Positions 6,575-35,262 of a stretch of DNA of 64,000 bases are shown piece by piece. The notes under the pieces were generated by a model. The model worked only from the letters and a program-made list of their open reading frames with translations. It was not told the DNA's origin and made no database searches. The first letter of the stretch is position 1. The number at the start of each line of letters is the position of its first letter. Source of the stretch: Gammaproteobacteria bacterium AqS3 (lineage in GTDB: Bacteria > Pseudomonadota > Gammaproteobacteria > MEIF01 > AqS3). The position numbers and the translations under genes were made by a program. Location of the stretch: positions 9,179-73,178 of the forward strand of contig MEIF01000001.1 in NCBI GenBank assembly GCA_001750645.1, given 5' to 3'.

Positions 6575-8641
6575 TCAGTTGATAAGATGAATCTCAGTCC
6601 CCGACCGCATTATTCTCTGTGGCATCGGGGGAATTTCACGCTCCGATTTAATGGTCGCGGCTCCGTCCTTACCAATCTCTAAATCGTACCGCCTGCCCGT
6701 ACCATCCGAGGCACCTGACAAGCGTCGGCATAACACATCCGCAAGAGCGGAATCTTCGACCACACAAATTATCTGCCTATCATCAAGACAAATTGCTGCC
6801 AACAACTCGATTAAGTGGATCGCCCGAAAATCATCGATATGTTGAACAGGATCATCCAAAATAAGTGTGCGTAAAGGCGTCCAAGGACGAGCCAGATATA
6901 CAGACAATAAAACCGCCAAACCAAGCACACGACGCTGTCCACTACTAAAGAAAAATTGAGGATTAAGTCCTTCACCCACTTCCAGACTTAGAGACCGTCG
7001 CAAGTTTCCACGCATACTGTATTTAATGAAACGCCAGTCATGATGCGGGCGCAAACGCTGGTATAACTCCTCCAGAAGAGGACTAATTTGAGCCAATCGC
7101 TCCTTGGTTATTTCATCCAAAATACTGCGCACACCACGCTCCATAGCTTTTGCCTTATCTAGAGCACTTTCGGATTTTTCCACCTGAAATGCTGCTGCAT
7201 CCACTTCCTTCCTTAAGATTTCCACACGATCCTCAAGCAAAGAAATATTCACGACAGTTTGTGATGCCTCAAGCGTGAGCAATGCCCTTTCCAAATCAAT
7301 GAGACGCTCCCTCTCTGCTGCAACATACTTGTCCGCTGCTTGGGGATCTTGAATGAGCTGAAAATCCAAACCATAAAGTTCAAATACTTCCTTATGCTCC
7401 TGTTGCAAAGAAACAAGACGAGATTCTTCTTCTTGGATCTCAGACCACTTTTCTTGTAGCCGCATTAGTTCATCCGTCTTTTCATTAACTATGTCACGTG
7501 CTTCATCCATTTGCTGCTGGGCAACCGCAAATCCAGCGGAAAGAGATTCCATTCGTTCACGTGCGGATACAAGACCAGCTAAGAACTCTTCATCGGTTCT
7601 TGCAGCCGAACAAAGTGGACAGTTTTCACCATGCAAACCAATCTTTTCACCGTGTTCGACAATCAAAGCAAGCGACGCAGCAAAAGAGTTAGCTTCCTTT
7701 TCAATGCTAAAGATGCGTTGCTTGTCTTCAAAAATATCATCTGCTTCAGCTTTTAATTTCTTGGCGAGTTCAAGCCGATCTTTTACGACTTCTCGAGCAG
7801 CTACAGTTTCTTTTTTATCAAATTCTCTTTGATCCTCCAAAATCTTATAGCCTCGTCTGATCATCTCATTTATGCGTGCAAGATGTCTTTGACCTTCTAT
7901 CAAAGCAGAACGTCCAGAAATAATATACGATGTAATATCTTTGAAATCATCAGATGTTGCAGCATCCAAGGTTTGTTTCGCGACCGCAATATCTTCTGTT
8001 TCAACAATATCCTCTTTTGCTTCAGACAACTGGGCCAATGCATCTGTAAGCTGGTTATGCGCATCGCTATATGCTTTTTGGTTGAGTTTATGTTTAGCTT
8101 TTATATTCTCAAGTATATTTTGGGCTTTAGCTACAAAATCAGTTTTCTGGACAGCACCAAGTGCTGAATGCACGCGTTTAAAATGTTCCGTTTCACTGAG
8201 ATCGAGACCAAGTGCAGAAATCCATTCGTCGCGTATGATCAAAGATTGACAGAGTTGATGAAGAGCATCGTCTGGTTTAACTCTGTAACAGAGAGCATTC
8301 TCGATTTCCTTTAACTCTTTGTCAGCTTTGTTTCCAGATTTTTTTGTTCTGGTAATGGAAAAATTTTTATTGTCGCCATTCTTAAATGATACTGTTACAT
8401 AATGATTATTTGGGCTTCCTTCGCCTCGCCACCATAAATAATCACTAATACTTTCTTTTGCCGATTTTCCGAAAGCATATTTATTGATGGATCCAGTTAG
8501 GGCAAATTCCACAGCATCAAGAAGCGTACTCTTTCCCACACCATTACGCCCAGTGATAACAGTAAATCCCGAACCAAAAGTGACGCGAATTTTTTCGCGA
8601 TATCCACGAAAACCACAGATCTCAACATAATCTAGTTTCAC
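6575..8641 (-). CDS. SMC/Rad50-like ABC ATPase with a long coiled-coil, LmuB/DdmC-like
   Basis: N-terminal Walker A ITGRNGVGKSTLLDAVEFAL. Several hundred residues of coiled-coil heptads. C-terminal signature FFSSGQRRV and Walker B/D-loop LILDDPVQHIDD. It is the last gene of a three-gene operon that begins with a SIR2 protein. Confidence 0.75.
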   Translation of the reverse strand: MKLDYVEICGFRGYREKIRVTFGSGFTVITGRNGVGKSTLLDAVEFALTGSINKYAFGKSAKESISDYLWWRGEGSPNNHYVTVSFKNGDNKNFSITRTKKSGNKADKELKEIENALCYRVKPDDALHQLCQSLIIRDEWISALGLDLSETEHFKRVHSALGAVQKTDFVAKAQNILENIKAKHKLNQKAYSDAHNQLTDALAQLSEAKEDIVETEDIAVAKQTLDAATSDDFKDITSYIISGRSALIEGQRHLARINEMIRRGYKILEDQREFDKKETVAAREVVKDRLELAKKLKAEADDIFEDKQRIFSIEKEANSFAASLALIVEHGEKIGLHGENCPLCSAARTDEEFLAGLVSARERMESLSAGFAVAQQQMDEARDIVNEKTDELMRLQEKWSEIQEEESRLVSLQQEHKEVFELYGLDFQLIQDPQAADKYVAAERERLIDLERALLTLEASQTVVNISLLEDRVEILRKEVDAAAFQVEKSESALDKAKAMERGVRSILDEITKERLAQISPLLEELYQRLRPHHDWRFIKYSMRGNLRRSLSLEVGEGLNPQFFFSSGQRRVLGLAVLLSVYLARPWTPLRTLILDDPVQHIDDFRAIHLIELLAAICLDDRQIICVVEDSALADVLCRRLSGASDGTGRRYDLEIGKDGAATIKSEREIPPMPQRIMRSGTEIHLIN

Positions 8642-9213
8642 TTTTGTTCCAACAGCATCTTCGCAATTTCTTCAGAATTTTGATCACCAAGAAATGCATT
8701 CAGAACATCATCGGAGACACTACTCAATCTTGAACGAAACTTATCCTCAAAACCTGCATCTGAGAAAATTGGCTTGGCTTTAATTTCAGTAATAGGTAGC
8801 AAGGCATACTCAATATCTTTTGATGTATTTATATTGACACGAGCAATTTTCCGAGTCAGAGAAAAATCCTCCTCAATCTGTTCAACTTCACGCTGCCTAG
8901 ATTGATCTTTGTCTCCAGTCAAAAAGACAGAATAAACATTCCAAGCTTTATCTCCAGACATACGAAGTGCTGCACTATGCGAACTAAGTGCTTTTTGTTG
9001 TTCAAATTTCCATTTAGAAATAAGCTCTTCCGCAGATGAGAACACATAAATAAAGCCCATAATAGTTGCGCTTTCAAAACAAGTTATTGAATGTGAATTA
9101 TCAGAATACCATGACCAAGTGTCGTAACCAGAACCCCGGAGATATATTTCGGATTGTCTTGCGATATCCATTACAACTCCAACCGTTCTTGAGCTTGTTT
9201 GAAAGTTAACCAC
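8638..9213 (-). CDS. small protein of unknown function, LmuC/DdmB-like by position
   Basis: 191-aa ORF. Its stop overlaps the downstream SMC start by 4 nt (ATGA). It lies between the SIR2 and SMC genes. Confidence 0.5.
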   Translation of the reverse strand: MVNFQTSSRTVGVVMDIARQSEIYLRGSGYDTWSWYSDNSHSITCFESATIMGFIYVFSSAEELISKWKFEQQKALSSHSAALRMSGDKAWNVYSVFLTGDKDQSRQREVEQIEEDFSLTRKIARVNINTSKDIEYALLPITEIKAKPIFSDAGFEDKFRSRLSSVSDDVLNAFLGDQNSEEIAKMLLEQK

Positions 9214-10550
9214 CGCTCCTCAGCGGTCGTTCTCAATATGTTATCCGAACTTCCTCGGCCAATTATATTTCCAGGCATACCAGTCTCCTCAGCTCCCACT
9301 GCAACAAAAATATTAGCCAGGGAAGATGCCGGCGGTTCAACAGGGAAACGCTCTGCCACACTACTTATTGACTCCCCCGCACCATTAATCACTCTGATTG
9401 AATGTTCTTTCAACGTATAGCCCTCTCGCTGCTGTTGCGCACCTGCTTTCCGCAAAAGCAGGTGAAAGCATCCCAACATTTTACTTCTAATCTTGTCTGG
9501 ACATTTTTTAGTTGCAGGCTTCCTATTAGGCACTCCTTCTGCATCTCTACGCCAAGAATACAGGTCTTCGCTACTCAGCGATGAATCAACAGACAGCCAA
9601 TTTTGATTGAAGTCCAATGTAGTTCTCTGCTCAAATTCATCTCGACCTGCTGCCATTAGTTGCCGTAGATAACTCTCAGAAAATGCCCTCCGTAATTCGT
9701 CAAGCACTTCAGCCCCCGAACCCCTCACATGGGCAAAATCAATATTCGGCTGGTGCAGAAGTGCCCAGAGTTCAGGAGCCTTTTCCTCAAGAGCTTTTTT
9801 CTCTAAAAGATCAATCACTGTAACCGATTTCGGATCGGTTCCTTGAAGAGCATCAGCAATAATCTGATTAAGATAGCACCAATCAGACCAGAAACCAACT
9901 ACAAGCAGGTCCTTCTGACTCAGATTAGTTCGCATCCAATTTTTATTTTTTTCAATGCGATCAGAAATGTTTGAATTATCAAGTTGTGATTGTGTCCATA
10001 CAGTGGAAATGCGATCAAGTCTTAAGCAGCCGTGCAACTTCAAGAGCGGGGCTTGAGAGCGAGAATAATTTACCGCTTGTTCTCCATCTAGAGAACCTCG
10101 AAAATCTGCCCCATATTTCTGTGCACCTCGCTCAATTAATTCATCAAAGTTGCAAGAAAGGCAGGCAACAGCCGCTCTTGTGATCAAAAGATCTGCTATC
10201 GCAGAATGACCAAAATTAGGGTGGCTCGCAAATTCGTCCCATGGAACTAAGTTTTCAATGAAGTACACGAGTCCATTCTGTTCTTCATTAGAAAAATGTT
10301 CTGCCAGCGCCTCCAGATTCAGACGAAGTTCAGGTGACATATCTGAATCCGTGCTATCCCGATATTTATCAAAGCATATCTCGGCAATACGACTCGCGCA
10401 AGGCAGATTGCTTGGTTCAGCCATAGACAGACCGGCACCACAAAGCACTACCAATCGGTCAGCATCTATAGATCTCAGCAACCGTTTTCGAATTTTAGGA
10501 CATAACAGAGGCTCATTCATACTTGAAAACTCTTGTCTGAAGCTTCCCAA
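9171..10550 (-). CDS. SIR2-like (SIR2_2 type) domain protein, putative Lamassu LmuA-type effector
   Basis: LVVLCGAGLSMAEPSNLP resembles the GAGxS...P NAD-binding motif, and LLKLHGCL resembles the sirtuin HG motif. First gene of the SIR2 / small / SMC operon. Confidence 0.6.
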   Translation of the reverse strand: MGSFRQEFSSMNEPLLCPKIRKRLLRSIDADRLVVLCGAGLSMAEPSNLPCASRIAEICFDKYRDSTDSDMSPELRLNLEALAEHFSNEEQNGLVYFIENLVPWDEFASHPNFGHSAIADLLITRAAVACLSCNFDELIERGAQKYGADFRGSLDGEQAVNYSRSQAPLLKLHGCLRLDRISTVWTQSQLDNSNISDRIEKNKNWMRTNLSQKDLLVVGFWSDWCYLNQIIADALQGTDPKSVTVIDLLEKKALEEKAPELWALLHQPNIDFAHVRGSGAEVLDELRRAFSESYLRQLMAAGRDEFEQRTTLDFNQNWLSVDSSLSSEDLYSWRRDAEGVPNRKPATKKCPDKIRSKMLGCFHLLLRKAGAQQQREGYTLKEHSIRVINGAGESISSVAERFPVEPPASSLANIFVAVGAEETGMPGNIIGRGSSDNILRTTAEERWLTFKQAQERLEL

Positions 10551-10652: not shown

Positions 10653-11174
10653 CTATATATCCAATTTCAGACGAACCTTCTGAACCTTTTTAGATGCCGT
10701 ATGTTCTACTGCAATATAGATATATAGCTTGGAAATATCATGTGGTTCTAGTAATCTCCAAAAGTTTTGCTGGAACATCATCAACCGCATGAAAGTTCCC
10801 GAGGCGAGATTACATGAAAGTTCGCCTTGCACTGTATTAGATGAGAAATCTCCATCCATCAGCCAAAGTCCTAAAGCTTTTTTATGCAATGGCTTATCGA
10901 AAATCTTCATGAAATAATTTGTATATGTATAACATGACACTTTAAGAATTGTCGTGGGCAATCCACTCTTGTTAACTATGGTGATACCAAGAGCTGCAAA
11001 TATAGTTCCATCGGGTAAAGGTTCATCATTATTCCAACTTCCCATGTTTGGTCTAATTTCAATTCGCAGCCGATCTCTTTTTCTATATTCAGCATATATG
11101 TTCCAAGCAAGCGAAATAGTAGCGATAAACACCCCCACCCATGCGGCAATATCTGTATAACTAAATTCTTCCAA
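10653..11174 (-). CDS. small protein with a single N-terminal TM helix. Paralog of 18877..19395.
   Basis: MEEFSYTDIAAWVGVFIATISLAWNIY... Hydrophobic helix at residues ~8-27, then a soluble domain. Unknown family. Confidence 0.55.
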   Translation of the reverse strand: MEEFSYTDIAAWVGVFIATISLAWNIYAEYRKRDRLRIEIRPNMGSWNNDEPLPDGTIFAALGITIVNKSGLPTTILKVSCYTYTNYFMKIFDKPLHKKALGLWLMDGDFSSNTVQGELSCNLASGTFMRLMMFQQNFWRLLEPHDISKLYIYIAVEHTASKKVQKVRLKLDI

Positions 11175-11315: not shown

Positions 11316-12794
11316 CTAAGAAGTCAACTTTATTAGTCTCTTATATCGCGAGTCATCTTCGAACTGAGGCTGGACTCTTACTATCATTTCAAGACAATCT
11401 TTGAGATGCCCTTTTGATATTTGAGGAACCTTTGCATCAATAATGAGAGCTAAGAAGTCTAAAGTTTCTGCAGGCTTGATTCCACATAACTCTGACTTAT
11501 GCAACTCGTAAATCTGGTCGGAAGGCACATCCGCTGTAATAGGGACCAACCAATCGCGAAGGAGATTTAGTGCTTCGGGAAAGTTCTCATGCGCCGCAAC
11601 ACACAAACGGCCCAGACCTTCAGAAATATCAGCATGTTCATCAGGAGTCAAATTCCCCGGATTTTCTGGCCAAATTGCTTTCAAGTAGGGAGCAATCCGA
11701 TTCAACCAATAATCAGCACGCTGATCACCCGCATCTCTCAGTGTTCTCACTAACGTCTGAGTCACCTTTTGCAGACCATCCGGCGGCAGAAGGCGAGTAG
11801 CCTCGGCCAACTCGGAATTGAGGAAATTACCATCAGGGTTTAGGGCAGTGACAGTGATGAAATCAGCATATTGCCTACCGTGTGTTCCCAGAGCTTGATA
11901 ATGATTTACAGTGTCAAGAACGTTGTGCTTGATAGCCTCCATCAAAGGAGGATAAACGTAGGGGTTCAACAAGAATCCTCTCCAAATCGAGGCTGCTTCA
12001 TCTGGAAATCGATCCCAATCAAACAAAGGAAGCAGATATAAATCTGTCCATTCCTTATCCACAGTAAATAGCGCATCAGCATAGTTGGCAAGTATCACAC
12101 GACCATGGCGGTATTGTTGGATCTGTAAATCACACAACTTGGTGAATACAGGCTCAAGCTCGCTCGGTAACTTTTGACCTTCTTTGGGCGGCCACCGATA
12201 CCACCAACGAAACAGTGCTTCTGTCACATCTCCCACTGGATGATTGATAGCGCAAAAGACAGGATCTTCGCTATGTATCAAGATTTTATGTTCTATGGCA
12301 AGTATTCGCTTTACTAGTGAGAAAAAATGTGTTTCATCTTTTTCAAAGCTTTTGGCCATCAGCCATAACCACCGACTGATTTCCTCGGCAATGTCAGGCA
12401 ATTTATCGTCTGGAATACCAGCCAATAGAACAGCCATTTTGCCCCAAGATTTGTGAATGACCTCCTCCTCAGGCCAAGACTGAAAAGCTTCGTGCCAGAA
12501 CATAAGCCGCCAGTTATCTTTATCAGCCAGCTCACATAAGGCATCAGCTGTCGCATCAAAATCGTCGCGACATTTTTTCCGCCAATCTTCTCGCGCATGC
12601 GTATTGGTGACAGAATGTTTATTGAGCCAAACAATCAGTTTTTGAACTTTAACAGAATGAGATTCATCATTCTTACTTCCCTTAGAGTAACGGCGAGAGA
12701 GCTCCTCAAGCTTTCTCCTAGATTCTTCACTCAAATCTATACCTGAAGCCTTCATCTCTGACAACCTCAACCAGATTTCTCGATCCTTACTCAT
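11316..12794 (-). CDS. C-terminal half of DSR2-like protein, unit 3, helical partner domain
   Basis: Homologous to the C-terminal third of the 1242-aa fused protein and to 14979..16772. Shared blocks are INHPVGxxTEAL..WWYR, KYRHGRV.LA, LLPLF.W and YADFITV.AL. It is in the same frame as the upstream SIR2 ORF, separated by TAG + AAC. Confidence 0.7.
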   Translation of the reverse strand: MSKDREIWLRLSEMKASGIDLSEESRRKLEELSRRYSKGSKNDESHSVKVQKLIVWLNKHSVTNTHAREDWRKKCRDDFDATADALCELADKDNWRLMFWHEAFQSWPEEEVIHKSWGKMAVLLAGIPDDKLPDIAEEISRWLWLMAKSFEKDETHFFSLVKRILAIEHKILIHSEDPVFCAINHPVGDVTEALFRWWYRWPPKEGQKLPSELEPVFTKLCDLQIQQYRHGRVILANYADALFTVDKEWTDLYLLPLFDWDRFPDEAASIWRGFLLNPYVYPPLMEAIKHNVLDTVNHYQALGTHGRQYADFITVTALNPDGNFLNSELAEATRLLPPDGLQKVTQTLVRTLRDAGDQRADYWLNRIAPYLKAIWPENPGNLTPDEHADISEGLGRLCVAAHENFPEALNLLRDWLVPITADVPSDQIYELHKSELCGIKPAETLDFLALIIDAKVPQISKGHLKDCLEMIVRVQPQFEDDSRYKRLIKLTS

Positions 12795-12797
12795 GTT

Positions 12798-14915
12798 CTA
12801 CTCCTCAAACTCTGAATCGTGATTAGCCGGCCCTGCGATAATCGCCTCCTCAAGCCTCTTGAACTCATCTGGATTTAGCCTCTTCGGGAGTACCCTGAGT
12901 AACTCCAGAACTTCAGGTTCACTTTCCGAAGCCCAGAGCCATTTACCCTCCTCTTCCAAAAGCCAATCTAAAGCGATACTAGCAGGGATTGCGTCACCTT
13001 GAGCGGCAGCGAACAACGCGAGCCTTTGAAAAAGCGGGCAAGGTTCAGTCCACCAAGATATTGCCTCAGCAGTCGCCTTATATGTCGACTGCCTTTCCAA
13101 GGCTAGCCAAGCATTACGGATAGGGTCTATCAACGTCATCCAATCGTGAATATTATCATCTCGAGAATGCTCATTGATCGAAGTCTGTCGAATATATACC
13201 AATCCACTTTCTTGATTTGCGGACTCAGTTTTCTGGATAAGATTAAAAGCATTTCGTAATGAATCAGTAAATTCAGGCAGAAGTGTCGGCAACGCCGATA
13301 TCCATTGTTCTTCATTATTAAGCTCCATCAAAGAATCAGTATTTCCGCCTGCCAAAGCAACCTCCCAATAAATCAAAACTCCCTCATCCTCGGGCACTTG
13401 TCCCCTAGCCAATTTATCAAAATCGCGCAACAATATGCGCGGGTTCAGAAGTTTCCGAAGCTCTTGAAGTGAGAATTTAGTCAGCCCATCAAGCCTAAAT
13501 TCGTTACACCAGATCTGAAAAGACCGACTCCGCCCTTCACGTCTAATACTCCTTTCAATCAACCGCTCCCAAAGTTCTCGCATGAACGGATTGAAGCCGC
13601 CTTCATCCCTACTATCATTAGTCTCTCCATCAATCAGCTTATATAGATGCCTGCGAAAAAACCAAGAAAATTTCTCGCGTAATTCACTGCCATCATTGGC
13701 GAGCCATTCCAGCAGTCTTGGATCATTAAAGTGACTAGTTAACCAAGAAATCAGGGGCTTCTGCATTTCATTCGCTGTTCTTTCTTGAACTCGTGTATCG
13801 GTAACGTTCGTTAAAGACTCCTTGAATCTTCGATTTTCAGCCATGGGCTTCAACCAAGCTAAAGAGTGAGCCGGATTCGACTGTGCGAAGCATTCAGATG
13901 GTTTGCCACTAGGATCTCTTAGTACCCATAACATTAAACCGACAAAGTAGCTCTCCGGGGTGTTATTAATAGGGTCGTAATGGACATACTTTTTAACGAT
14001 ATTCACTTTACCTTGCTCTTTTTCATCATAAATTTTTGCCCACTCTTTTAGCGTCTCATGTAGGAGAGTATGTTTAGGATCGGCATAGTACAAAATAGGT
14101 GTGACATTTTTAGCATTCCATTTATCGGCTGTCTGTTCCCTTTCATCAATTTTATGATCTGCAAAAGCAAACATTTCTCTAGTCGGTTCTCCAAGCAGAC
14201 TGTCCGCAGCGAGCGCATCAGTCATGTAACGTATCACTGGATCATTAAGACTATAACCGACAAAGCAAATGATGTATCTACGAAACAACTCGCTCACAAA
14301 ACGAGCCGCCCAACGTTCTGTAAGATATGCCCGACCAAAATCTCCGCTGGAAAGCACCAAGGAATCCAGATCGTCCTCTGTAGGCTCTTGCATCAAAAGG
14401 CCATGCAAATAAACCAGTCCATCCCATCCCTCTTTAGGCACAGGTAATAATGGTGCTTGAAAAGTCTTGGACAGCATCGAACTATCATCATTCATTACCG
14501 TTTCAAATAGACGGTCAAAGTTGGTAGTAACCAAGCGCATGCGGGATTTCTTTTTTGGCTGCTCCCGCGTCTTACTGAGTTTTAACAGTGAATTGTGAGT
14601 TGCAGTCGCATCTGGACAATTAAGTTTGGGCTTCAAAATATCAGGCAGTATGTCTCGCACTTTCTTGCGCCCAAAACGCTGGTTTTTCTCCAACAAATGA
14701 ATGGCACTATCAAATCGCTCCTTATCTATTTCCGATTGTGGCAAAGGGTCATTTGCATCTGAAAACTGATTTACAAGCTGCTGTGCCAAGCAAGCAAAAT
14801 CAGGTAACTTAGCTGAGCGGGATATTCCAGCACCGCAGAAGAACACCACATTGCCCTTCTCATGCTCATCCAATAGATGCTCAGGAATGTCAGGGCCGTT
14901 TTCAGTAAATTGCAT
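12798..14915 (-). CDS. DSR2-like SIR2 (NADase-type) domain protein, N-terminal half of unit 3
   Basis: N-terminal motifs VVFFCGAGIS..LP.F, LVTTNFDRLFE and LVYLHGLL, the SIR2_2 pattern seen in DSR2/ThsA. The C-terminus ends ...ALDWLL..WLW..LLRVL..IIAGP, which is part of the shared linker region. Confidence 0.8.
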   Translation of the reverse strand: MQFTENGPDIPEHLLDEHEKGNVVFFCGAGISRSAKLPDFACLAQQLVNQFSDANDPLPQSEIDKERFDSAIHLLEKNQRFGRKKVRDILPDILKPKLNCPDATATHNSLLKLSKTREQPKKKSRMRLVTTNFDRLFETVMNDDSSMLSKTFQAPLLPVPKEGWDGLVYLHGLLMQEPTEDDLDSLVLSSGDFGRAYLTERWAARFVSELFRRYIICFVGYSLNDPVIRYMTDALAADSLLGEPTREMFAFADHKIDEREQTADKWNAKNVTPILYYADPKHTLLHETLKEWAKIYDEKEQGKVNIVKKYVHYDPINNTPESYFVGLMLWVLRDPSGKPSECFAQSNPAHSLAWLKPMAENRRFKESLTNVTDTRVQERTANEMQKPLISWLTSHFNDPRLLEWLANDGSELREKFSWFFRRHLYKLIDGETNDSRDEGGFNPFMRELWERLIERSIRREGRSRSFQIWCNEFRLDGLTKFSLQELRKLLNPRILLRDFDKLARGQVPEDEGVLIYWEVALAGGNTDSLMELNNEEQWISALPTLLPEFTDSLRNAFNLIQKTESANQESGLVYIRQTSINEHSRDDNIHDWMTLIDPIRNAWLALERQSTYKATAEAISWWTEPCPLFQRLALFAAAQGDAIPASIALDWLLEEEGKWLWASESEPEVLELLRVLPKRLNPDEFKRLEEAIIAGPANHDSEFEE

Positions 14916-14978: not shown

Positions 14979-16772
14979 TTAACCACCACCATGTTGGCGA
15001 GCCAAAGTATTCAATCTCACATATTGAGGATGCTTTTTAAGATGCGGTGCTTCATCCCGTATCGCATCAAGACAGCTCCTAAGTTGATCTACCGGTAAAT
15101 ACGGTATCTCGTTCTTGACAATCAAATCCAAAAACTCCAGTGCCTTGTCCGGATGATTTTTACAGAGGCCAGAATCATTAAGGGCATCGATTTGGTAGGA
15201 ATGGTCGGTTCTAATTGCACCCAACCAAGACCGAAGAAGATCGAATGCTTCTGGAAAGTTCTCTTCTGCCGCGATACATAAACGGCCTAGGTTTTCAGAG
15301 ATTTCAGGATCAACTCCCTGATTATCCTGTGGCCATATATCCTGTATGTAGGGAACAATTCGATTCTGCCAACAATCCCTCCGCTGCTCTCGCGAACCTT
15401 CAAGCACTTCCCATAATGTTTGAGCCGACCTACTTAAACCTTCTTTTGGAAGTTTTTTAATAGCCTTTGCCAGCTCTTTCTTTGTGAATGTTTCGCCCGC
15501 ATCAAGAGCAAGGAAAGTAAGGAAATCAGCATACTGACTACTGTGATCGCCCAAATCACCATAATGGTCTGGTTCTGCTGTATCAAGAAAATCGGCTTTG
15601 AGAGCATCCATCAGAGGAAGATATAAGCGGGGTGTCCAAAGAAAACTCCTCCAAGCCAAGTAAGCTTCTTGCGAAGATTTCCAGCTGAATAAGGGCAACA
15701 AATTTTCATGCGTCCACTTAGGATCAACCCTGAATATCGTGATGACATTGTCAGCTAGGAACACACGGCTATGACGATATTTTTTAATTTCGATGTTACA
15801 TAACTCAGTAAATATTGATCTAACTTTTTCATCTAATCCAAGATTATCTCTAAGTGATTGGCGATACCACCAGAATATTAATGCTTCGGTTGCATGCCCA
15901 ATTGGGTGGTTAATAGCTTCTCCGACAGGATCTTTTCTATGCTCATCATCTTCATTGTCAAAGTTAACAATCTCAACATTAGCTGCTTTTACGTTCTCAT
16001 GATCCGAACTGAGAATTCGTTCCACAAGCTCGAAAAAATATTCTTCTTGCCCATCAAGCACTTTGGCAATGTCCCGCAACCATAAACTAACATAACGAAC
16101 AAGATCTGGGAATACATCCTCTGGAACTTTAACTAAAGTCCAAGCCAACTTCTCCCAAGATTCTTGGAAACGCTTTTCTTCCGACCAAGCCCGCAGGGCG
16201 TCTCGCCAGCGCACAGAGCACCAATGATTCTCTTTAGCTAGTGCACACAAAGCATCAGAGGTCAAAGCGAAATTGTCCCGGCAACGCTGCCGCCAGTCAT
16301 CTCGCTGTAGGCCATCCGTGCCAGGGTTCTGTTTGAGCCACTTAATGAGTTCAGGGAGCGTGCTCGGTGTGGTGGTAAATTCAGTTGCCTCGTCACCTTC
16401 ACTCACCCGGAAAGAAAATTCGTCTCTTTGATCCTCTGACAGCTCCCACTCTGGATGCTGACTAGAAATATCTTTCAGCTGATCTTTAGCAATTTCACTC
16501 AAATCTGCTCCTGCTTCCTCCATTTTTGCCAGACGAAACCAAATGTTCATGTCTCTATATCTGCGCCAGTACTCAGGGTCAATACCCTCTCCATAAAGGG
16601 CGCGGGGCGGGCCTGCAAGAATGGCTTGTTCTAGCTCAGCCAGCAAGTCTTGTTCAAGTTTCGGTGCGAGTGACACCAGCAAACGCATAACTTCTCGCTT
16701 GGTTTCAGGGACCCAAAGCCATCGGTGCTCACTATCCAAGAGCCAGCCCAATGCACGACGATTAGAAATCAT
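14979..16772 (-). CDS. C-terminal half of DSR2-like protein, unit 2
   Basis: Start chosen at MISNRR, where the ATG overlaps the upstream TGA as ATGA at 16769-16772. The track's longer ORF is an N-terminal extension. The protein begins with the linker block RALGWLL..HRWLW..VMRLLVSL..ILAGP and continues through the same conserved blocks as unit 3 and the fused protein. Confidence 0.7.
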   Translation of the reverse strand: MISNRRALGWLLDSEHRWLWVPETKREVMRLLVSLAPKLEQDLLAELEQAILAGPPRALYGEGIDPEYWRRYRDMNIWFRLAKMEEAGADLSEIAKDQLKDISSQHPEWELSEDQRDEFSFRVSEGDEATEFTTTPSTLPELIKWLKQNPGTDGLQRDDWRQRCRDNFALTSDALCALAKENHWCSVRWRDALRAWSEEKRFQESWEKLAWTLVKVPEDVFPDLVRYVSLWLRDIAKVLDGQEEYFFELVERILSSDHENVKAANVEIVNFDNEDDEHRKDPVGEAINHPIGHATEALIFWWYRQSLRDNLGLDEKVRSIFTELCNIEIKKYRHSRVFLADNVITIFRVDPKWTHENLLPLFSWKSSQEAYLAWRSFLWTPRLYLPLMDALKADFLDTAEPDHYGDLGDHSSQYADFLTFLALDAGETFTKKELAKAIKKLPKEGLSRSAQTLWEVLEGSREQRRDCWQNRIVPYIQDIWPQDNQGVDPEISENLGRLCIAAEENFPEAFDLLRSWLGAIRTDHSYQIDALNDSGLCKNHPDKALEFLDLIVKNEIPYLPVDQLRSCLDAIRDEAPHLKKHPQYVRLNTLARQHGGG

Positions 16773-18706
16773 GAGCTTTCTGCCAAAGCTAAAAATACAA
16801 GCCTGCGAAATATTGGGTAACGAATACCCCACCAACGCTCCACCTCCATGGCTGCTTGCTCAGGGGATTCTTCTTTCAGAGCAATCCACGCATCCCAGGT
16901 CAGATCAATTAATGCAGTCCAATCATGAAAAGCTCTGTTTTGGGAATGCCTGCTAATGGATGGTTGATAGATATAGGACATGTCATTCATATCATCAGCC
17001 GCTTCAAGCCCCCTCATAAGATCAAGCACCGAACGCAACAAACTAGTAAATTCGGGCAGAAGTTCCGGCAGTGCTTTCTGCCACTGAGGATCATTAGAAA
17101 GTCTTTTGACAGCATCATGGACATTACCCGCTGATAATTTAATCTCCCAATTAACTAGGTCGTTGATGTGTTGAGGTTTTTCACCATCAGCATTCTCGAT
17201 CGAACCGCGGAATGGCTCGCTTAACGATATATATGGGGTCAGATTTTTTCTAAGTTCTCGACGCGAGGTCGGAGTGAACCCATATCGCTTGAATCGATCA
17301 TGCCAAAGATACATATCAAAGTTGCGTGCTCCGGGCTTAACACATCCTGTCATCAAGAGGCACCAAAGTTTCCACATTAATCGACTGGGAATACCATTGG
17401 GAGAATTTTGACGAATACGCCTCAATTCATCAATTTTACGCTTGTTTTTCAGCTCAGACAACTCGTTCAATCTATCTTCGATTAATCTCACAAATCTATC
17501 ATCCAATCTGTCACCGTACTGAGAAAGCCAAAGTAATAATCGCGGATCATTAAGATGACGTGTCAACCAGGGCATCAATTGTCGTGTCACATCGTCCCAA
17601 TTACCTCTTTGAACACCTGTTTCAAAGATATTGGTCAGGGGGCTTAGGTACAGCCAATCTAAAAATGGTGCCGAGTTATGCTCAGAAAAGCGTTTGGCAG
17701 GCAGGCCGGTAGGATCCTTCAAAGCCCATAACATCCGAGCAATAAAGTTATCCTCTTGAGTGCTCTCTCTGGGTTTTGTGCGAGCAAGTTCAATGACGAT
17801 CTGTTCCTTGCCTCTCACTCCATCACGATAAGTTTCAGCCCACCGCAATAAGGTCTTATGCAAGTAAGTGTGGCCACTATTTTCAAGGTACAAAATAGGT
17901 CTAACACTCTTTGCCTCCCATTCATGTCGAGACTGCTCTTCTTCATTTTCTGCATGGCTGCCAAAGGCAAAGACCTCTCTTGACATATTTTCAGGCGAAC
18001 GATCAGCGGCAAGTGCATCCATCATATAACGCAGCATTGGATCGCCAATGCTATACCCAACAAAACATACGGTGTAATTGCGAAACAATTCACTTAGAAA
18101 ACGTGCCGCCCAGCCATCTCTAAGATATGCCCTTCCAAAATCACCACTTGAAACAATTAAATCTCCCTGATTATCCCTGGGCCATTGTCCCGTCAAAAGA
18201 CCATGCAGATAGACCAATCCATCCCACTGATCATCTTTTGGAATGGGTAGCAGCGGTGCCTGAAAACGGTCGACTTTCAGTAATCTCTCGGCAATTGCTT
18301 TTTCAAATAGACGATCAAAGTTAGTCGTGACTAAATGCATAGAATTGCTGCGCGTCTTACCCAGTGTCAATAGAGCTTCGTGTGTGTCAGTGGGAGCATC
18401 AAGGCGTACCTTCAAAATATTGGCAAGTCCTTTTCTAATGGTTTTGGAACCGCCAGCTATATATTTTTCCATCAGATTAATAGCAATATCTAATTGACTA
18501 TCACAAATCGCCCTATTAATGGTGTCCCTGATTTGAGGATCAACCCTATCTGAAAAATTGTCATATAGCTTCCTTACCAACCCATCAAAACCCGGCAATC
18601 CAGCTGGATAGGAAATTCCAGCACCGCAGAAGAACACCACTCGACCATCCTCGTGTGCTTGTAACAAGGATTCTGGAATATCGGGGCCGTTGGGGATAAA
18701 TTGCAT
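16769..18706 (-). CDS. DSR2-like SIR2 domain protein, N-terminal half of unit 2
   Basis: MQFIPNGPDIPESLL, VVFFCGAGISYPAGLPGF, LVTTNFDRLFE, LVYLHGLL. Ends FRRLVFLALAESS, just before the linker block. Confidence 0.8.
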   Translation of the reverse strand: MQFIPNGPDIPESLLQAHEDGRVVFFCGAGISYPAGLPGFDGLVRKLYDNFSDRVDPQIRDTINRAICDSQLDIAINLMEKYIAGGSKTIRKGLANILKVRLDAPTDTHEALLTLGKTRSNSMHLVTTNFDRLFEKAIAERLLKVDRFQAPLLPIPKDDQWDGLVYLHGLLTGQWPRDNQGDLIVSSGDFGRAYLRDGWAARFLSELFRNYTVCFVGYSIGDPMLRYMMDALAADRSPENMSREVFAFGSHAENEEEQSRHEWEAKSVRPILYLENSGHTYLHKTLLRWAETYRDGVRGKEQIVIELARTKPRESTQEDNFIARMLWALKDPTGLPAKRFSEHNSAPFLDWLYLSPLTNIFETGVQRGNWDDVTRQLMPWLTRHLNDPRLLLWLSQYGDRLDDRFVRLIEDRLNELSELKNKRKIDELRRIRQNSPNGIPSRLMWKLWCLLMTGCVKPGARNFDMYLWHDRFKRYGFTPTSRRELRKNLTPYISLSEPFRGSIENADGEKPQHINDLVNWEIKLSAGNVHDAVKRLSNDPQWQKALPELLPEFTSLLRSVLDLMRGLEAADDMNDMSYIYQPSISRHSQNRAFHDWTALIDLTWDAWIALKEESPEQAAMEVERWWGIRYPIFRRLVFLALAESS

Positions 18707-20050: not shown

Positions 20051-23000
20051 TTAGCTGCCCTTTCGCTCTCGAACAAAATTCATCAGCTTTTCATATTGAT
20101 CGTTCTCTTTAACAAGTCTAGGTGCCTCTGTTCGTATGACCTTAAGACAAGTTTCAAGTTCATCCTCTGAGATCCAAAGGGTTTCATTTCCGATGACACG
20201 GTTCAAAAAATCTAGTGTTTTATCTGGATAGGTTTTACACCAATCTGATTGACTAAGAATATGAACCAAGAAAAAAGGATCTGATAATGTCTGAAGGAAT
20301 GGACTAATAAAATCAAAAATCTCCGGAAACAACTCTTTATCTACCATGCACAAGCGACCAAGACTTTCGGAAACTCCATCTAAAATATTCCCATTCTGTT
20401 TGGGAAAAATATTTTGCAAATAAGGTTTGATTTGATTTTCCCAACAGTCTTTTATTTCAACTTCCGGAGATTGCAGTGTTCTCTCTAATGCTTGAACCGC
20501 TCTTTGCAAACCTTCTGACGACAGTTTGCTAGTCACCTCTTTCAACTCTTCGTTATTGAATGTGCCATCCGGGTGGAGTGCAATAACAGTGATGAAATCA
20601 GCGTATTGGCCACTATGTTCGCCGAGCTTGTGGTAATGATTCACAGTGTCAAGAACATCGTGTTTGATTGAGCTCATTAAAGGAGGATATACGTAAGGAG
20701 ACCCCAAGAATCCTCTCCAAACGCAAGCCGCCTCGTCAGGAGATTTATCCCAGCTAAATAACGGTGACAGATGCTGGGCCGCCCAATCTGGATCCACGCC
20801 AAATAAAGTGCCCGCATAGTCGGCCAGCACCACACGGCCATGACGATATTTTTCTACATCTGTATTGCTGCATAACTCAGTGAAAATTGGCTTGATTTTC
20901 TCAGGTAATCCTTGATTGGGTTTGAGCGCCTGTCGATACCACCAACGTATCAGTGCCTCAGTAACACAGCCTACGGGATGATTTATGGCATCCAGGACAG
21001 GATCTCTGTCTATTTCCTCATCAAACCCAAGTTCTTCAGCGGTAAAATGCTTAACTCTTGGATCATCTTTGTCCTTTAGATTAAGGATTCGGTTTACAAG
21101 AGTGAAAAAATACTCCTCGTGCTCTTTAAAAGTTTTTGCAGTGGCCTCTAACCATCGAGCAACTTCAGTAGAGGTATCTTGAAGCACTTCTTCTGGGACA
21201 TTAATCAAAATCGGTGCCAGTTTGTTCCAAGATTTGTAAAGAAGTTCTCCCTCCGACCAAACCTGCAAGGCTTTATTCCAGCGTCTAGACGACCAATTAT
21301 TTTCTCCAGCCAACATGGATAGCAAATCAGATGCCGTATCAAACTCGTCACGACAATATTGCTCCCAATTGTCTTGTTTCCAAGGATTGGTGTCAGGGTT
21401 CTGCCTGAGGTATTCGATCAACTTCAAGCTGTTGCGAGGCATCTCAACTTGTTCAGGCTTCTGCGCTCCTTCACTGGTCCAGATAGGAAACTCATCACTC
21501 TCATCTTCCTGTAACTCCCATTCTGGATGATCAGCTTCAAGATTATCCAGCCGCTCTCTAGCTTGTTCACCTAAAACAACACCTGCATCAGCAATCTTTG
21601 CCAGTCTGAGCCAAATAGCCCCATCTTTGATCAGCTCGCGATGCTCAGGCTCAATATCATTCTGAAGCATGGCATCAGGCAAGCCGGCAAGAATCACGCT
21701 CTCCAGCTTCTCCAATCCTTCCGGCATCTCTTCTTGAAGCTTGGGAGTAAGTACCCTCAATAAACGCATGACTTCTCGTTTGGCATCAGACCCCCAAAGC
21801 CATCTGTATTCATCTGCCAAGAGCCAGTCCAATGCCAGATGGTTAGGTATTACCTCGTCTTGCGCTGCAGCGAAAAAGGCGAGCCTGCGAAACAATGGAT
21901 AAGGTATGTCCCACCAAGATTTCGCTTCCCTAGCGGCATGCTCAAGTGATTCCTCTGATGTCTCCTTCAAAGCGAGCCAGGCATCACGGACCAGATCAAT
22001 CAACACCGTCCAATCGTAGTAATTTTTGTTCTGGGGATGTCTACTGATCGAGGGCTGATATATGTAGGACAGATCTCGTTCACTATTTGCCCCCTCAAGT
22101 TCTTCCATAAGTTCGAGAGTATCTCTCAGTAGATTAGTAAATTCTGGCAAGAGTTCAGTGAGCTCAGATTTCCACAACTCATACTCACTAAGTTCTTTGA
22201 TGTATGAATGAACTTTGCCAACAGACAAGGTAATTTCCCAATTAACCAAATCTTTGATGCACTCAGGTTCACGCCCTTTATCATCAACCGTCCGATATGA
22301 CGGTTCACGCAGCAGTATACACGGCGACAGATTCTCACGAAGTTCCCGACGTAAAGTTAACGTAAGTCCATCCTGCTTGAATCGTTCACACCAGTGATGC
22401 ATGCGATACATATCACGATGGCCGGTCTTGGATTTGACATTTCCAGCAAGTAGCAGACGCCAAAGTTTCTGCATTGGCAAGTCCAGAATCCCATTGGGTA
22501 AATTTTCACGAATGTTTTTTAGCTTCGCTGCGTCACCATTACCTTCAAATCCGACCAGTACATCCAGACGGTTTTCAATTAGCCTGGTAATCTCATCATA
22601 TAGCGGCCCGTCGCGCTGAGAGAACCAAATCAGCAGTTTGGGATCATTAAGATAACGCATTAACCGGAGCCCCAGTTGCGGCATTACTTTTTTCCAATTA
22701 TTTCCCTGAGAACCTGCGTCTGCAATCTTTATCAAAAGTGGCAGCTGATCAAAAGAATCAATGGAATCAAGCTCATCAAAGCTCTCGGCGGGCAGATCTC
22801 TAGAATCACTTAATGCCCATAGCATTCGATCAACAACGGTATCTTCTTTGACACTTTCCAAGGGAGGAATTCTTACAGATGCGACGACAACCTGCTCCTT
22901 ACCCTGCACACCATCACTATACGCTTGTGCCCAGATTTTTAACGTTTCATGCAAACATTCATGCTCAGCATCTTCGCAATACAAAATAGGTTGAACGCCT

Positions 23001-34540: not shown

Positions 34541-34786
34541 ATGAGTAAATTAAACTGGATATATGCCTTGGTGGCGGTTTTGCTTGCAGTCATTCTTTTC
34601 ATGAACTTTGTCAATTACGAAAGATTGGACGAGCTGGAAGAAGGAGCTGTCAAGACCATAGATGCACAGAAGGCGCAGATAGACAAACAGAAGGCGCAGA
34701 TAGACAAACAGAAGGCGCAGATAGAGGAGCAGAAAAAGCTCCTGGCCATTCTGGAGCAAAAGTGTGAAAAGGCTCCGCCAAAATGA
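34541..34786 (+). CDS. small membrane-anchored coiled-coil protein with QKAQIDK heptad repeats
   Basis: N-terminal TM helix IYALVAVLLAVILFM, then three copies of QKAQIDK encoded by a 21-nt tandem repeat. Confidence 0.5.
   Translation: MSKLNWIYALVAVLLAVILFMNFVNYERLDELEEGAVKTIDAQKAQIDKQKAQIDKQKAQIEEQKKLLAILEQKCEKAPPK
34667..34729 (+). repeat. 21-nt tandem repeat, about three copies of cagaaggcgcagatagacaaa, in frame
   Basis: Copies at 34667-34687, 34688-34708 and a diverged copy at 34709-34729. Confidence 0.85.
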
Positions 34787-34890
34787 ACAATAAATGATTC
34801 AGCCATTCCCCAGGCGATGAATTCCCGGCATTCTGCCCGCCGGCGAGCTGCGGCCACTCTCCCAGCCAGATCGGTTTTCGCACCTTCTTA

Positions 34891-34900
34891 CCCCCCCCCC
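34891..34900. repeat. homopolymeric tract C10, intergenic between convergent 3' ends
   Basis: Read directly: ...cttctta cccccccccc tcaccc... Confidence 0.85.
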
Positions 34901-34905
34901 TCACC

Positions 34906-35262
34906 CTACTGCCTCTCCAGTATCTCCGCAACCAAATCCTCGGCTGTTCCGATGTATTTCTCGCGGCCGCTGAACAGGGTGATGACCTCCTGAGTAAAGA
35001 ATCCCTTGACTCGCACAAAGCTGACAAAGCCGTTCGGGCATCGGTACAAAACCAGGGTGGATGTCGCCGCCAGCAATGGCTCGGCCCCGTCCAGGCAGTC
35101 AATGCGATGATCCTGCCCGCAGCCGCATTCATAAAACAGGTTTTCAAATCTGGATAAATTGAGGAACTCCGTCGTCCTGAAATAAATCCCCTTTATCTCC
35201 TCGTCGAACATCTCTTTTGTTTCCAATAGTTTCATTTTCTCCTCCCGAATTCGGCGCTTCAT
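34906..35262 (-). CDS. hypothetical Cys-containing protein
   Basis: 118-aa ORF (CGCGQDHRIDC...CPNGF). Its start overlaps the stop of the downstream hydrolase by 4 nt. Confidence 0.4.
   Translation of the reverse strand: MKRRIREEKMKLLETKEMFDEEIKGIYFRTTEFLNLSRFENLFYECGCGQDHRIDCLDGAEPLLAATSTLVLYRCPNGFVSFVRVKGFFTQEVITLFSGREKYIGTAEDLVAEILERQ

What the first reader, a model, noticed from the sequence alone, without database searches (positions are those of the whole stretch)
12795..12800. Unit 3 split is a single in-frame amber codon followed two codons later by ATG
ORFs 12798..14915 and 11316..12794 are in the same frame, separated only by TAG + AAC. The stop falls inside the conserved linker (IIAGPANHDSEFEE, stop, N, MSKDREIWLRLSEMKASG, versus fused ILAGLPDAML...GAIWLRLAKIADAG). 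This could be a nonsense mutation with reinitiation, a suppressible stop, or the first step of gene fission.
Basis: seen in the sequence. Interest (0 to 1): 0.6.

Follow-up and report, generated by a model that had tools for sequence, protein, structure and literature searches.

The report
Amber stop splitting a DSR1 defence gene
One of three neighbouring copies of a known anti-phage gene (DSR1, an NAD-destroying sirtuin fused to a phage-capsid sensor) in a sponge-symbiont genome is cut in two by a single stop codon that is followed at once by a ribosome-binding site and a new start codon, so it is either a very young pseudogene or a gene caught in the act of splitting into two.

Summary
On the minus strand the sequence reads GAG GAG TAG(12800-12798) AAC ATG(12794-12792). 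ORFs 12798..14915 (705 aa) and 11316..12794 (492 aa) are in one frame.

Together they form a complete DSR1 defence protein: an N-terminal SIR2 NADase plus a C-terminal alpha-solenoid sensor. It is the third of three tandem DSR1 paralogues in a low-GC defence island of the MAG 'Gammaproteobacteria bacterium AqS3'.

The TAG sits in a family column where Trp is the commonest residue, so TGG>TAG is the simplest origin. Apart from this one base, both halves are as well conserved as intact family members. The lesion is therefore recent, tolerated, or an assembly error.

TAG is an ordinary stop in neighbouring genes, so I found no support for recoding. GAGGAG lies 6 nt upstream of the ATG, which gives a canonical coupled restart.

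In a census of 187 DSR1 loci elsewhere, about 16% of the 160 genome and metagenome loci are disrupted. The only two other genes with a single nonsense codon also have an in-frame ATG within two codons (joint chance about 7e-5). A separate clade exists naturally as two genes.

My best reading is a real, recent nonsense mutation giving a restart-competent split, that is, a nascent fission (confidence about 0.5). A plain young pseudogene is the main rival. This is an ordinary kind of event with modest interest.

The parts
12798..14915 (-). U3a: N-terminal cistron of DSR1 paralogue 3 (705 aa). It holds the SIR2 NADase domain plus the first part of the alpha-solenoid sensor. NCBI MBF2753684.1 'SIR2 family protein'.
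   Evidence: Pfam SIR2_2 E=5.8e-23. PADLOC Dsr1 PDLC02183 E=1.7e-181 and PDLC04167 positions 1-710 of 1248. Invariant N132, D134, H171 and GAGIS are kept. Name and accession.
12798..12800 (-). The in-frame amber codon TAG.
   Evidence: It aligns with a family column that is W in 29, F in 14 and L in 11 of 89 sequences. It maps to model residue 349 (U1 aa 714), the first turn of helix 346-366 after loop 334-345.
12801..12806 (-). GAGGAG (codons Glu-Glu), a Shine-Dalgarno-like core 6 nt upstream of the ATG.
   Evidence: the only site in U1-U3 that combines an in-frame ATG within 3 codons with an SD core of at least 5 nt.
12792..12794 (-). In-frame ATG two codons after the stop; the start of U3b.
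   Evidence: Local RNA structure from -30 to +30 is -7.1 kcal/mol against a gene mean of -11.0, sd 3.8 (weak evidence).
11316..12794 (-). U3b: C-terminal cistron (492 aa). It holds two helices, a shortened hinge and the C-terminal lobe of the sensor. NCBI MBF2753683.1 (ISN29_00240).
   Evidence: PADLOC Dsr1 PDLC02183 E=1.4e-120, profile 827-1267 of 1275. 100% match to P0001. It keeps 93% of the family's >=80%-conserved columns. It lacks about 17 aa of the HPEWxLxEDExDEF hinge motif.
16769..18706 (-). U2a: N-terminal ORF of DSR1 paralogue 2 (645 aa). It ends in a TGA created by a 1-nt deletion next to the run GAAAG (16780-16776).
   Evidence: Adding one A restores a 1242-aa ORF.
14979..16772 (-). 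U2b: C-terminal ORF of paralogue 2 (597 aa from ATG 16772-16770). That ATG overlaps the TGA stop of U2a (ATGA, 16772-16769).
   Evidence: the 597-aa product was called by a gene finder. The split lies in loop 274-280 of the model.
20051..23779 (-). U1: the intact DSR1 paralogue (1242 aa), used as the fused reference. NCBI MBF2753687.1.
   Evidence: AF2 model of aa 366-1242 has pLDDT 90.9.

Best explanation
The TAG is a real, evolutionarily recent single-base nonsense mutation, most simply TGG (Trp) to TAG. It lies in the third of three tandem DSR1 genes. DSR1 is a one-protein anti-phage system. Its N-terminal SIR2 domain destroys NAD+ when its C-terminal bilobed alpha-solenoid sensor is triggered; for E. 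coli Dsr1 the trigger is the phage major capsid protein. The mutation cuts the gene just before the last two helices that precede the hinge between the sensor lobes. Because the stop is preceded by GAGGAG and followed 3 nt later by an in-frame ATG on the same transcript, ribosomes that finish the 705-aa piece can restart. The cell then most likely makes two polypeptides: SIR2 plus the N-lobe, and the hinge plus the C-lobe. The locus is therefore a restart-competent split (a nascent gene fission) and not a dead gene. Shown: the stop, its context, the identity of both halves, their undiminished conservation, and the family-wide association of single nonsense codons with an adjacent ATG. Inferred: that restart actually happens, and that the two pieces still associate and work. 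Whether function is retained is open. The family pattern suggests such splits are at least tolerated.
For: Sequence and frame. Both halves are DSR1. The stop column is W in 29 of 89 relatives, and paralogue U2 has W there, so one transition explains it. There is no other lesion. U3 keeps 89% (N-terminal part) and 93% (C-terminal part) of the family's >=80%-conserved columns, against family means of 91% and 90%, and it keeps the invariant SIR2 residues N132, D134 and H171. Restart context: GAGGAG, 6 nt, ATG. This is the only site in the three paralogues with an in-frame ATG within 3 codons plus an SD core of at least 5 nt. No promoter-like or terminator-like site lies at the junction. In 160 DSR1 loci from genomes and metagenomes, the only other genes whose sole lesion is a nonsense codon (L036, TAA|ATG; L132, TAA CTC ATG) also have an in-frame ATG within 0-2 codons. 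The per-gene chance is 3-7% and the joint chance about 7e-5. The two nonsense codons without an adjacent ATG (L087, L057) sit in multi-lesion genes. The neighbouring paralogue U2 is split by a 1-nt deletion whose new TGA overlaps an in-frame ATG (ATGA); the chance of such a clean split is 2-5%. A diverged clade of DSR1 exists naturally as two adjacent cistrons (L009, L090, L159, L046), so the family can work in two pieces. The split lies at a loop/helix boundary of the solenoid. The assembly used Illumina short reads plus chromatin data (bioRxiv 10.64898/2026.08.05.743132), which makes a consensus substitution error unlikely.
Against: No relative shares this split, and the closest homologue of U3b is only 50% identical. 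There is therefore no evidence that selection has maintained the split. The junction is still in frame and colinear with fused relatives, which only shows that the event is young. A young pseudogene would look identical. About 16% of DSR1 genes elsewhere carry lesions, so decay of this family is common. The island also holds a frameshifted DSR1 (U2) and a frameshifted type III mod gene, and the host is a vertically inherited symbiont, a setting in which pseudogenes accumulate (the last point is my own knowledge). The cut is inside the sensor, not at the effector/sensor boundary used by the natural two-gene clade. In the homologous Avs7 sensor the two lobes must clamp on the capsid protein and the C-lobe autoinhibits the effector (PMC13581612), so untethered lobes might not work. 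The enrichment statistic rests on three genes and a definition chosen after seeing the data. No reads, RNA or protein data were available.
Confidence: 0.5

Rival explanations
1. Plain young pseudogene. The nonsense mutation inactivated a redundant or costly DSR1 copy in a host-restricted symbiont. The nearby ATG and GAGGAG are fortuitous leftovers of the coding sequence (Glu-Glu codons and a Met), and the downstream half is non-functional even if some of it is made.
For: DSR1 genes are often broken: about 22 of about 140 assessable loci in genomes and metagenomes, plus truncated or deleted remnants L001, L007, L075 and L085. The same island has a second broken DSR1 and a broken type III mod gene. 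One intact copy (U1) remains. Nobody else shares the split. EE before this column and Met shortly after it both occur in a few per cent of fused relatives, so the context could pre-date the stop.
Against: The joint chance of the stop-SD-ATG context is 0-0.3% per random nonsense site. Both other single-nonsense DSR1 genes and the neighbour U2 show the same restart-competent layout. There is no second lesion and no loss of conserved residues in either half.
Confidence: 0.3
2. The stop is not in the organism, or not fixed. It would be a consensus error, a chimeric join or a minority allele in the metagenome-assembled genome, and the real gene is fused.
For: The sequence is known from a single MAG contig of 109,075 bp only. 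AqS3 is the least abundant of the three symbionts by share of RNA-seq reads (0.87% of uniquely mapped reads). Two of three paralogues each carry exactly one single-base lesion in otherwise perfect genes.
Against: The assembly rests on Illumina short reads, where consensus substitutions are rare (my own knowledge). The paralogues are only about 45% identical in protein, so cross-mapping is implausible. The U2 lesion is in a run of only 3-4 A, not in a long homopolymer. An error would have to land by chance on the one site with SD+ATG.
Confidence: 0.12
3. Programmed readthrough, suppression or recoding of UAG gives a full-length 1197-aa protein from the split gene.
For: The two ORFs are in frame, so any readthrough would yield a normal DSR1. 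Only basal near-cognate readthrough of UAG is possible (my own knowledge).
Against: TAG terminates U3b itself, the type III res gene, the SieB-like gene and ORF 10653..11174. No tRNA gene is in the window. No conserved stop is seen in 89 fused relatives. No notable RNA structure follows the stop.
Confidence: 0.03
4. An old, established two-gene DSR1 variant that has been maintained by selection as two subunits for a long time.
For: A natural two-gene clade exists elsewhere. U3's hinge is unusual, being about 17 aa shorter.
Against: The junction is one base away from a fused gene, in frame and without indels after the stop. The natural clade breaks at a different place (about aa 452-500...AGR[VI]R* / M..LY.W) and in different frames. 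No relative carries U3's break.
Confidence: 0.05

Closest known systems
DSR1 / Dsr1 (defence-associated sirtuin 1; Gao et al. 2020; Garb et al., bioRxiv 10.1101/2021.12.14.472415)
   Same: The domain content and order are the same: an N-terminal SIR2 NADase with invariant Asn, Asp and His, followed by about 900 aa of alpha-solenoid sensor. There are strong full-length matches to the PADLOC Dsr1 profiles, and the gene sits in a defence island.
   Different: DSR1 is described as a single protein of about 1,250 aa, and 117 of 160 loci surveyed here in genomes and metagenomes are one uninterrupted ORF. This copy is two cistrons of 705 and 492 aa, separated by TAG AAC. Three diverged copies (about 45% identity) sit in tandem.
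Avs7-type bilobed TPR sensor that clamps phage major capsid protein (Nature 2026, PMC13581612)
   Same: According to that paper the Dsr1 sensor is homologous to the Avs7 sensor and E. coli Dsr1 is triggered by the capsid protein. My AF2 model of the intact paralogue is an all-alpha solenoid with a long irregular segment (U1 aa 751-783) that could be the hinge.
   Different: Homology of these particular genes to Avs7 was not tested here. There is no STAND NTPase. In U3 the polypeptide chain is cut two helices before the presumed hinge, so the two lobes would be untethered.
Translational coupling and reinitiation after a nonsense codon (classical lacI and T4 rIIB restarts; reviewed in PMC5972666; coupling in E. 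coli, PMC7538156)
   Same: A stop codon is followed within a few nucleotides by an SD-preceded ATG on the same mRNA.
   Different: Here it is inferred from sequence only. No expression data are available.
Natural two-gene DSR1 clade found here (loci L009, L090, L159, L046)
   Same: DSR1 is encoded as two adjacent cistrons with overlapping or nearly touching stop and start codons (ATGA, or 1-4 nt apart).
   Different: The break is at about aa 452-500, after the SIR2 module (...AGR[VI]R* then M..LY.W). The frames differ, and the junction is shared by diverged members, so that split is old. U3's break is at aa 705, in frame, and unique.
Interrupted coding sequences and early pseudogenes in host-restricted symbionts
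   Same: A single disabling-looking mutation in an otherwise intact gene, with other lesions in neighbouring genes.
   Different: The lesion falls on the one site in the gene that offers an SD plus an in-frame ATG, and this layout recurs in other single-nonsense DSR1 genes.

Membership tests
DSR1 (defence-associated sirtuin 1) | N-terminal SIR2-like domain with the catalytic Asn and His | tested here: met
   Pfam SIR2_2 E=5.8e-23 on U3a. N132, D134 and H171 are identical to 87 of 87 relatives.
DSR1 (defence-associated sirtuin 1) | Long C-terminal helical sensor homologous across the family | tested here: met
   PADLOC Dsr1 PDLC02183 and PDLC04167 cover U3a plus U3b end to end. There are 1,432 relatives of U3b, and most of the best 150 are 1,190-1,295 aa with the match at about 720-1,250. 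The AF2 model is an all-alpha solenoid.
DSR1 (defence-associated sirtuin 1) | Single polypeptide of about 1,200-1,300 aa | tested here: not met
   An in-frame TAG at 12800-12798 divides it into 705 + 492 aa.
DSR1 (defence-associated sirtuin 1) | NAD+ depletion and phage resistance on infection | not testable with these tools
   Needs cloning, phage challenge and NAD+ measurement.
DSR1 (defence-associated sirtuin 1) | Location among other defence genes | tested here: met
   Type III res/mod, two further methylases, a SieB-like protein and a Lamassu-like SIR2-LmuC-LmuB set lie on the same strand. The island GC is about 0.42 against 0.65-0.69 in the flank.
Translationally coupled cistron pair (termination-reinitiation) | Stop and next start within a few nucleotides, with an SD 4-10 nt upstream of the start | tested here: met
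   GAGGAG-TAGAAC-ATG.
Translationally coupled cistron pair (termination-reinitiation) | Both cistrons on one transcript | tested here: inconclusive
   No promoter-like or terminator-like site near the junction on the minus strand, but this is only a consensus scan.
Translationally coupled cistron pair (termination-reinitiation) | Downstream product actually made | not testable with these tools
   Needs ribosome profiling or proteomics.
Programmed stop-codon readthrough or UAG recoding | UAG not used as an ordinary terminator, or a dedicated tRNA or signal present | tested here: not met
   TAG ends U3b, res, the SieB-like gene and ORF 10653..11174. No tRNA is in the window. The rest of the genome was not available.
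Decaying pseudogene | Several lesions and/or loss of family-conserved residues | tested here: not met
   There is one lesion only, and 89% / 93% of conserved columns are kept against family means of 91% / 90%. A very young pseudogene cannot be excluded.
Natural two-gene DSR1 clade | Break after ...AGR[VI]R at about aa 452-500, with gene B starting M..LY.W | tested here: not met
   U3 is continuous through that region (FMRELWERLIERSIRREGRSRSFQIWCNEF). Its break is at aa 705.

The most novel reading that the evidence does not exclude
DSR1 sensors tolerate being cut near the hinge. U3 (and perhaps U2) would be working two-piece receptors: the SIR2-N-lobe piece and the C-lobe piece are made by coupled translation and are brought or held together around the phage capsid protein. 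Nonsense or frameshift mutations next to an in-frame ATG would then be a general route by which this defence family splits, and the natural two-gene clade would be the end point of that route.
Probability: 0.22. Interest if true: 0.6.

Novelty: new member of a known kind. Interest (0 to 1): 0.33.

Why it matters
If the split allele works, a large single-chain immune receptor can be divided inside its sensor and still function. That bears on how modular these clamp-like capsid sensors are. It also bears on how two-gene defence systems arise from one-gene ones, and on annotation: pipelines call such loci either 'pseudogene' or two unrelated proteins. Here NCBI lists 'SIR2 family protein' plus 'hypothetical protein'. 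If the allele does not work, the locus is one more example of decay of costly abortive-infection genes in a vertically inherited symbiont. In either case the locus should be annotated as one DSR1 unit interrupted by an amber codon.

Tried and rejected
1. Exact-sequence look-ups of U3a, U3b and U1 in the contig index found nothing. The cluster look-up found them only on the one MAG contig. No independent check of the codon was therefore possible.

2. The word-index homology search returned only proteins of 860 aa or less. This first suggested that stand-alone C-terminal genes are the rule. The exhaustive search showed that the family norm is a fused protein of about 1,250 aa, so I dropped that idea.

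3. Short homologues have clustered start positions at U1 aa 366, 436, 558, 643, 704, 768 and 854. This looked like preferred split sites, but most of these positions are family-conserved Met residues that gene finders pick after any upstream lesion or truncation. Only the cluster at 455-457 is a real two-gene clade.

4. P0062 and P0086, which looked like free-standing C-terminal genes, are a deletion remnant and a 5'-truncated remnant.

5. The PDB sequence search found no relative. The fold search gave only generic HEAT/ARM solenoids with TM about 0.2-0.27, so it did not help to place the lobe boundary.

6. RNA structure around the restart site is weaker than average but unremarkable, at the 17th percentile.

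7. The consensus scan showed no internal promoter or terminator at the junction.

8. Frameshifts in L122, L133, L149 and L087 cluster at q 765-790, close to U3's break. They are not clean splits, because the upstream ORFs run on for 13-128 codons with no adjacent ATG. I do not count them as support.

9. Sequence divergence: U3b is no more diverged from U1 than U3a is (45% against 44% identity). This gives no sign of relaxed constraint after the stop. dN/dS was not attempted because the paralogues are too diverged.
Full report
**1. The observation**

Read on the minus strand, the window shows ...GAT TCA GAG TTT GAG GAG TAG AAC ATG AGT AAG GAT CGA GAA ATC TGG... TAG is at 12800-12798, AAC at 12797-12795 and ATG at 12794-12792. 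The ORF list gives 12798..14915 (-), 705 aa, ending IIAGPANHDSEFEE, and 11316..12794 (-), 492 aa, starting MSKDREIWLRLSEMKASG. Both are in the same frame.

**2. What the two ORFs are**

- The upstream ORF has a SIR2_2 domain (Pfam E=5.8e-23).
- Both ORFs hit the PADLOC Dsr1 profiles strongly and in order. U3a covers profile positions 1-710 of 1248. U3b covers 827-1267 of 1275, with E=1.4e-120.
- Together they are one DSR1 (defence-associated sirtuin 1) gene.
- It is the third of three tandem DSR1 paralogues on the minus strand.
  - U1 (20051..23779) is intact at 1242 aa.
  - U2 is split into 16769..18706 and 14979..16835.
  - U3 is the subject of this finding.
- The paralogues are only 43-52% identical to each other and about as far from DSR1 genes of other bacteria. 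They are therefore old copies, not a recent duplication.
- They lie in a low-GC island (about 0.42 against 0.65-0.69 in the flank). The island also carries a type III res gene, a broken type III mod gene, two further methylases, a SieB-like protein and a Lamassu-like SIR2/LmuC/LmuB set.
- The source is the MAG 'Gammaproteobacteria bacterium AqS3', a vertically inherited symbiont of the sponge Amphimedon queenslandica.
- NCBI lists U3a as MBF2753684.1 'SIR2 family protein' and U3b as MBF2753683.1 'hypothetical protein'.

**3. The family norm is a fused gene**

The word-index search returned only short relatives, which was misleading. An exhaustive phmmer search of U3b against 1.84 billion representatives found 1,432 relatives. 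Most of the best 150 are 1,190-1,295 aa, with the match at about residue 720 to the end.

I read 160 DSR1 loci from species-representative genomes and from metagenomes.
- 117 are one uninterrupted ORF, plus 2 whose apparent stops are the natural gene end.
- About 18 are cut by contig ends.
- About 22 carry lesions.

Of 27 prophage or viral loci, 24 are intact. About one DSR1 gene in six is therefore broken somewhere, and decay of this family is common.

**4. Where the stop falls**

In an alignment of U1-U3 with 87 full-length relatives, the TAG column is W in 29 sequences, F in 14, L in 11, and Q, R or I in 6 each. Paralogue U2 has W. The flanking motif is ..E.ERW..IVDR.IWLRLAK. TGG>TAG, a single transition, is the simplest origin.

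From the stop to the C-terminus the alignment with fused relatives has no gap at the junction. A 4-residue shortening lies upstream of the stop.

I built an AlphaFold2 model of the intact paralogue's residues 366-1242 (73-sequence alignment, pLDDT 90.9, pTM 0.72). The region is an all-alpha solenoid.
- The stop maps to model residue 349, the first turn of helix 346-366, just after the loop 334-345.
- A long irregular segment, model 386-418 (U1 751-783), follows two helices later.
- By inference from the published bilobed Avs7/Dsr1 sensor (PMC13581612), that segment is probably the hinge between the N and C lobes.
- U3b lacks about 17 residues of this segment, including the conserved DEF motif and a conserved Pro.

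'Conserved linker' is thus roughly right but not exact.

**5. State of the two halves**

Apart from the one codon, U3 looks healthy.
- It keeps 175 of 197 (89%) family-conserved columns upstream of the stop and 66 of 71 (93%) downstream. The family means are 91% and 90%.
- The invariant SIR2 residues N132, D134 and H171 and the GAGIS motif are present.
- U3b is no more diverged from U1 than U3a is.

The lesion is therefore recent, or tolerated, or not real.

**6. Recoding**

TAG terminates U3b itself, the res gene, the SieB-like gene and ORF 10653..11174. No tRNA gene lies in the window. None of the 89 fused sequences in the alignment (87 relatives plus U1 and repaired U2) has a stop here. I find no support for a suppressible or recoded stop.

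**7. Restart context**

GAGGAG (the two Glu codons) ends immediately before the TAG, 6 nt upstream of the ATG. Scanning all codon positions of U1-U3, the only place with an in-frame ATG within three codons plus an SD-like core of at least 5 nt at 4-10 nt spacing is this junction. It scores at 3 of 1140 positions in U3 (all from this one ATG) and at none in U1 or U2.

An ATG alone within 2-3 codons of a random nonsense site is expected at 4-7% of sites here, and at 4.7% on average in 117 intact DSR1 genes. No promoter-like or terminator-like site lies near the junction. Local RNA structure is weak but not exceptional.

**8. Comparison with other broken DSR1 genes**

This is the most informative result, although the sample is small. 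Among the 160 loci, only two other genes have a single nonsense codon as their sole lesion.
- L036 reads ..GESPP TAA ATG TTT.. (stop directly followed by ATG).
- L132 reads ..CAA TAA CTC ATG.. (ATG two codons later).

With U3, that makes three of three. The per-gene chances are 0.030, 0.036 and 0.069, and the joint chance is about 7e-5.

The two nonsense codons without an adjacent ATG (L087, L057) are in genes that also carry frameshifts.

In the window itself, U2 is split by a 1-nt deletion next to GAAAG. The resulting TGA overlaps an in-frame ATG (TCATGATT, 16772-16769). A clean split of this kind is expected for 2-5% of random deletions. L034 shows the same ATGA layout.

Other single frameshifts (L048, L122, L133, L149) are not clean.

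A diverged clade of DSR1 is naturally two cistrons. In L009, L090, L159 and L046, a SIR2 gene ending ...AGR[VI]R is followed within 0-4 nt, or with an overlap, by a gene of about 768 aa starting M..LY.W. The family can therefore exist in two pieces, although that clade is cut at a different place.

The pattern fits a persistence filter. Lesions that leave both parts translatable stay otherwise intact, and the others go on to decay. The caveats are the small numbers and a definition chosen after seeing the data.

**9. Mechanism and verdict**

Published work shows that DSR1 depletes NAD+ on infection (bioRxiv 10.1101/2021.12.14.472415). It also shows that the E. coli Dsr1 sensor, homologous to the Avs7 sensor, is triggered by the phage major capsid protein. 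In Avs7 the two lobes clamp around the capsid protein and the C-lobe autoinhibits the effector (PMC13581612).

- My best reading (confidence about 0.5) is a real, recent TGG>TAG mutation that turned U3 into two coupled cistrons. One encodes SIR2 plus the N-lobe. The other encodes the hinge plus the C-lobe. Whether the pieces still cooperate is not shown.
- The main rival (0.3) is a young pseudogene with a fortuitous ATG. The frequency of broken DSR1 genes, the other broken genes in this island and the symbiont lifestyle favour it.
- An error or minority allele in the single MAG contig (0.12) cannot be excluded. The sequence exists in only one assembly, though that assembly rests on Illumina short reads.
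- Readthrough (0.03) and an old established two-gene form (0.05) are unlikely.

**10. Novelty and interest**

DSR1, nonsense-restart and gene fission are all known. I file this as a new member of a known kind: a split allele of DSR1.

Interest is modest (0.33). The codon itself is an ordinary event. The recurrence of stop-then-ATG in the family, and the position near the sensor hinge, make a cheap and clear experiment possible (native, fused and restart-dead alleles).

Noticed in passing
window 16769-16780 (minus strand): DSR1 paralogue 2 is split by a 1-nt deletion next to GAAAG. The new TGA stop overlaps an in-frame ATG (ATGA), so its C-terminal 597-aa half could also be made by coupling. 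Adding one A restores a 1242-aa ORF that keeps 92-97% of family-conserved columns. The break lies in a loop between two helices of the model.
   Followed up: partly
window 27988-27998 (mod gene pieces 27982..28833 and 26919..27779, minus strand): The type III mod methylase next to the res gene is frameshifted exactly at a run of 11 G (minus strand): ..NWGGGF* in one frame, [11 protein letters not shown].. in the next. This is the classic layout of a phase-variable type III mod gene in the OFF state, or a homopolymer length error in the assembly.
   Followed up: partly
window 30646-30653, 32573-32581, 34891-34900: Three more poly-G tracts (8, 9 and 10 G on the minus strand) lie in the island. 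One is just upstream of the start of methylase ORF 30867..32558 and one is inside ORF 34650..35147. They may be further phase-variable switches.
   Followed up: no
window 6575-10550 (minus strand): Downstream of the DSR1 array lies a Lamassu-like set: a SIR2-domain protein (9171..10550), a weak LmuC/MComp1-like protein (8638..9213) and an LmuB/SMC-type ATPase (6575..8641). This makes a fourth SIR2 effector in 17 kb.
   Followed up: no
window 19382-20002 and 18877-19278 (minus strand): A SieB-like (superinfection exclusion) protein and a small unknown ORF sit between DSR1 paralogues 1 and 2. ORF 10653..11174 (173 aa, no family hit) sits between paralogue 3 and the Lamassu-like genes.
   Followed up: no
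window about 6000-36000 against 36000-64000: There is a sharp GC change (0.39-0.47 against 0.63-0.70). The whole defence island looks horizontally acquired. No tRNA gene is in the window, and no integrase was looked for.
   Followed up: no
L009:2647-6307, L090:1575-5310, L159:~1840-1900, L046:~5200-5260: There is a natural two-gene form of DSR1. Gene A (SIR2, about 450-475 aa) ends ...MR.LW.LL.AGR[VI]R*. Gene B (about 766-769 aa) starts M..LY.W within 0-4 nt or with an overlap, in another frame. About 17 diverse B proteins in the database start at this non-conserved Met. I did not find this form described in the papers I searched.
   Followed up: partly
L036:2364-2369 and L132:3583-3591: The only other DSR1 genes whose sole lesion is a nonsense codon have an in-frame ATG directly after it (TAA ATG) or two codons after it (TAA CTC ATG), like the window's U3.
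   Followed up: yes
L004:5993-6003 (also L003, L005, L006): A DSR1 gene carries a +1 frameshift in a run of 7 C just before the conserved Met of MRTLW. The same 780-aa downstream product is seen on 13 contigs from several samples. It is either a real, widespread frameshift allele or a slippage-prone tract.
   Followed up: partly
L122, L133, L149, L087 (query positions about 765-790); L085, L001, L075, L193, L007: Break points of disrupted or truncated DSR1 genes pile up around family positions 630-640 and 750-800. Four independent frameshifts fall within about 25 residues just after the IWLRLAK helix, and several 5'-truncated remnants start near 630 or 765-780. This could mark module boundaries or could be chance. 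It is not resolved.
   Followed up: partly
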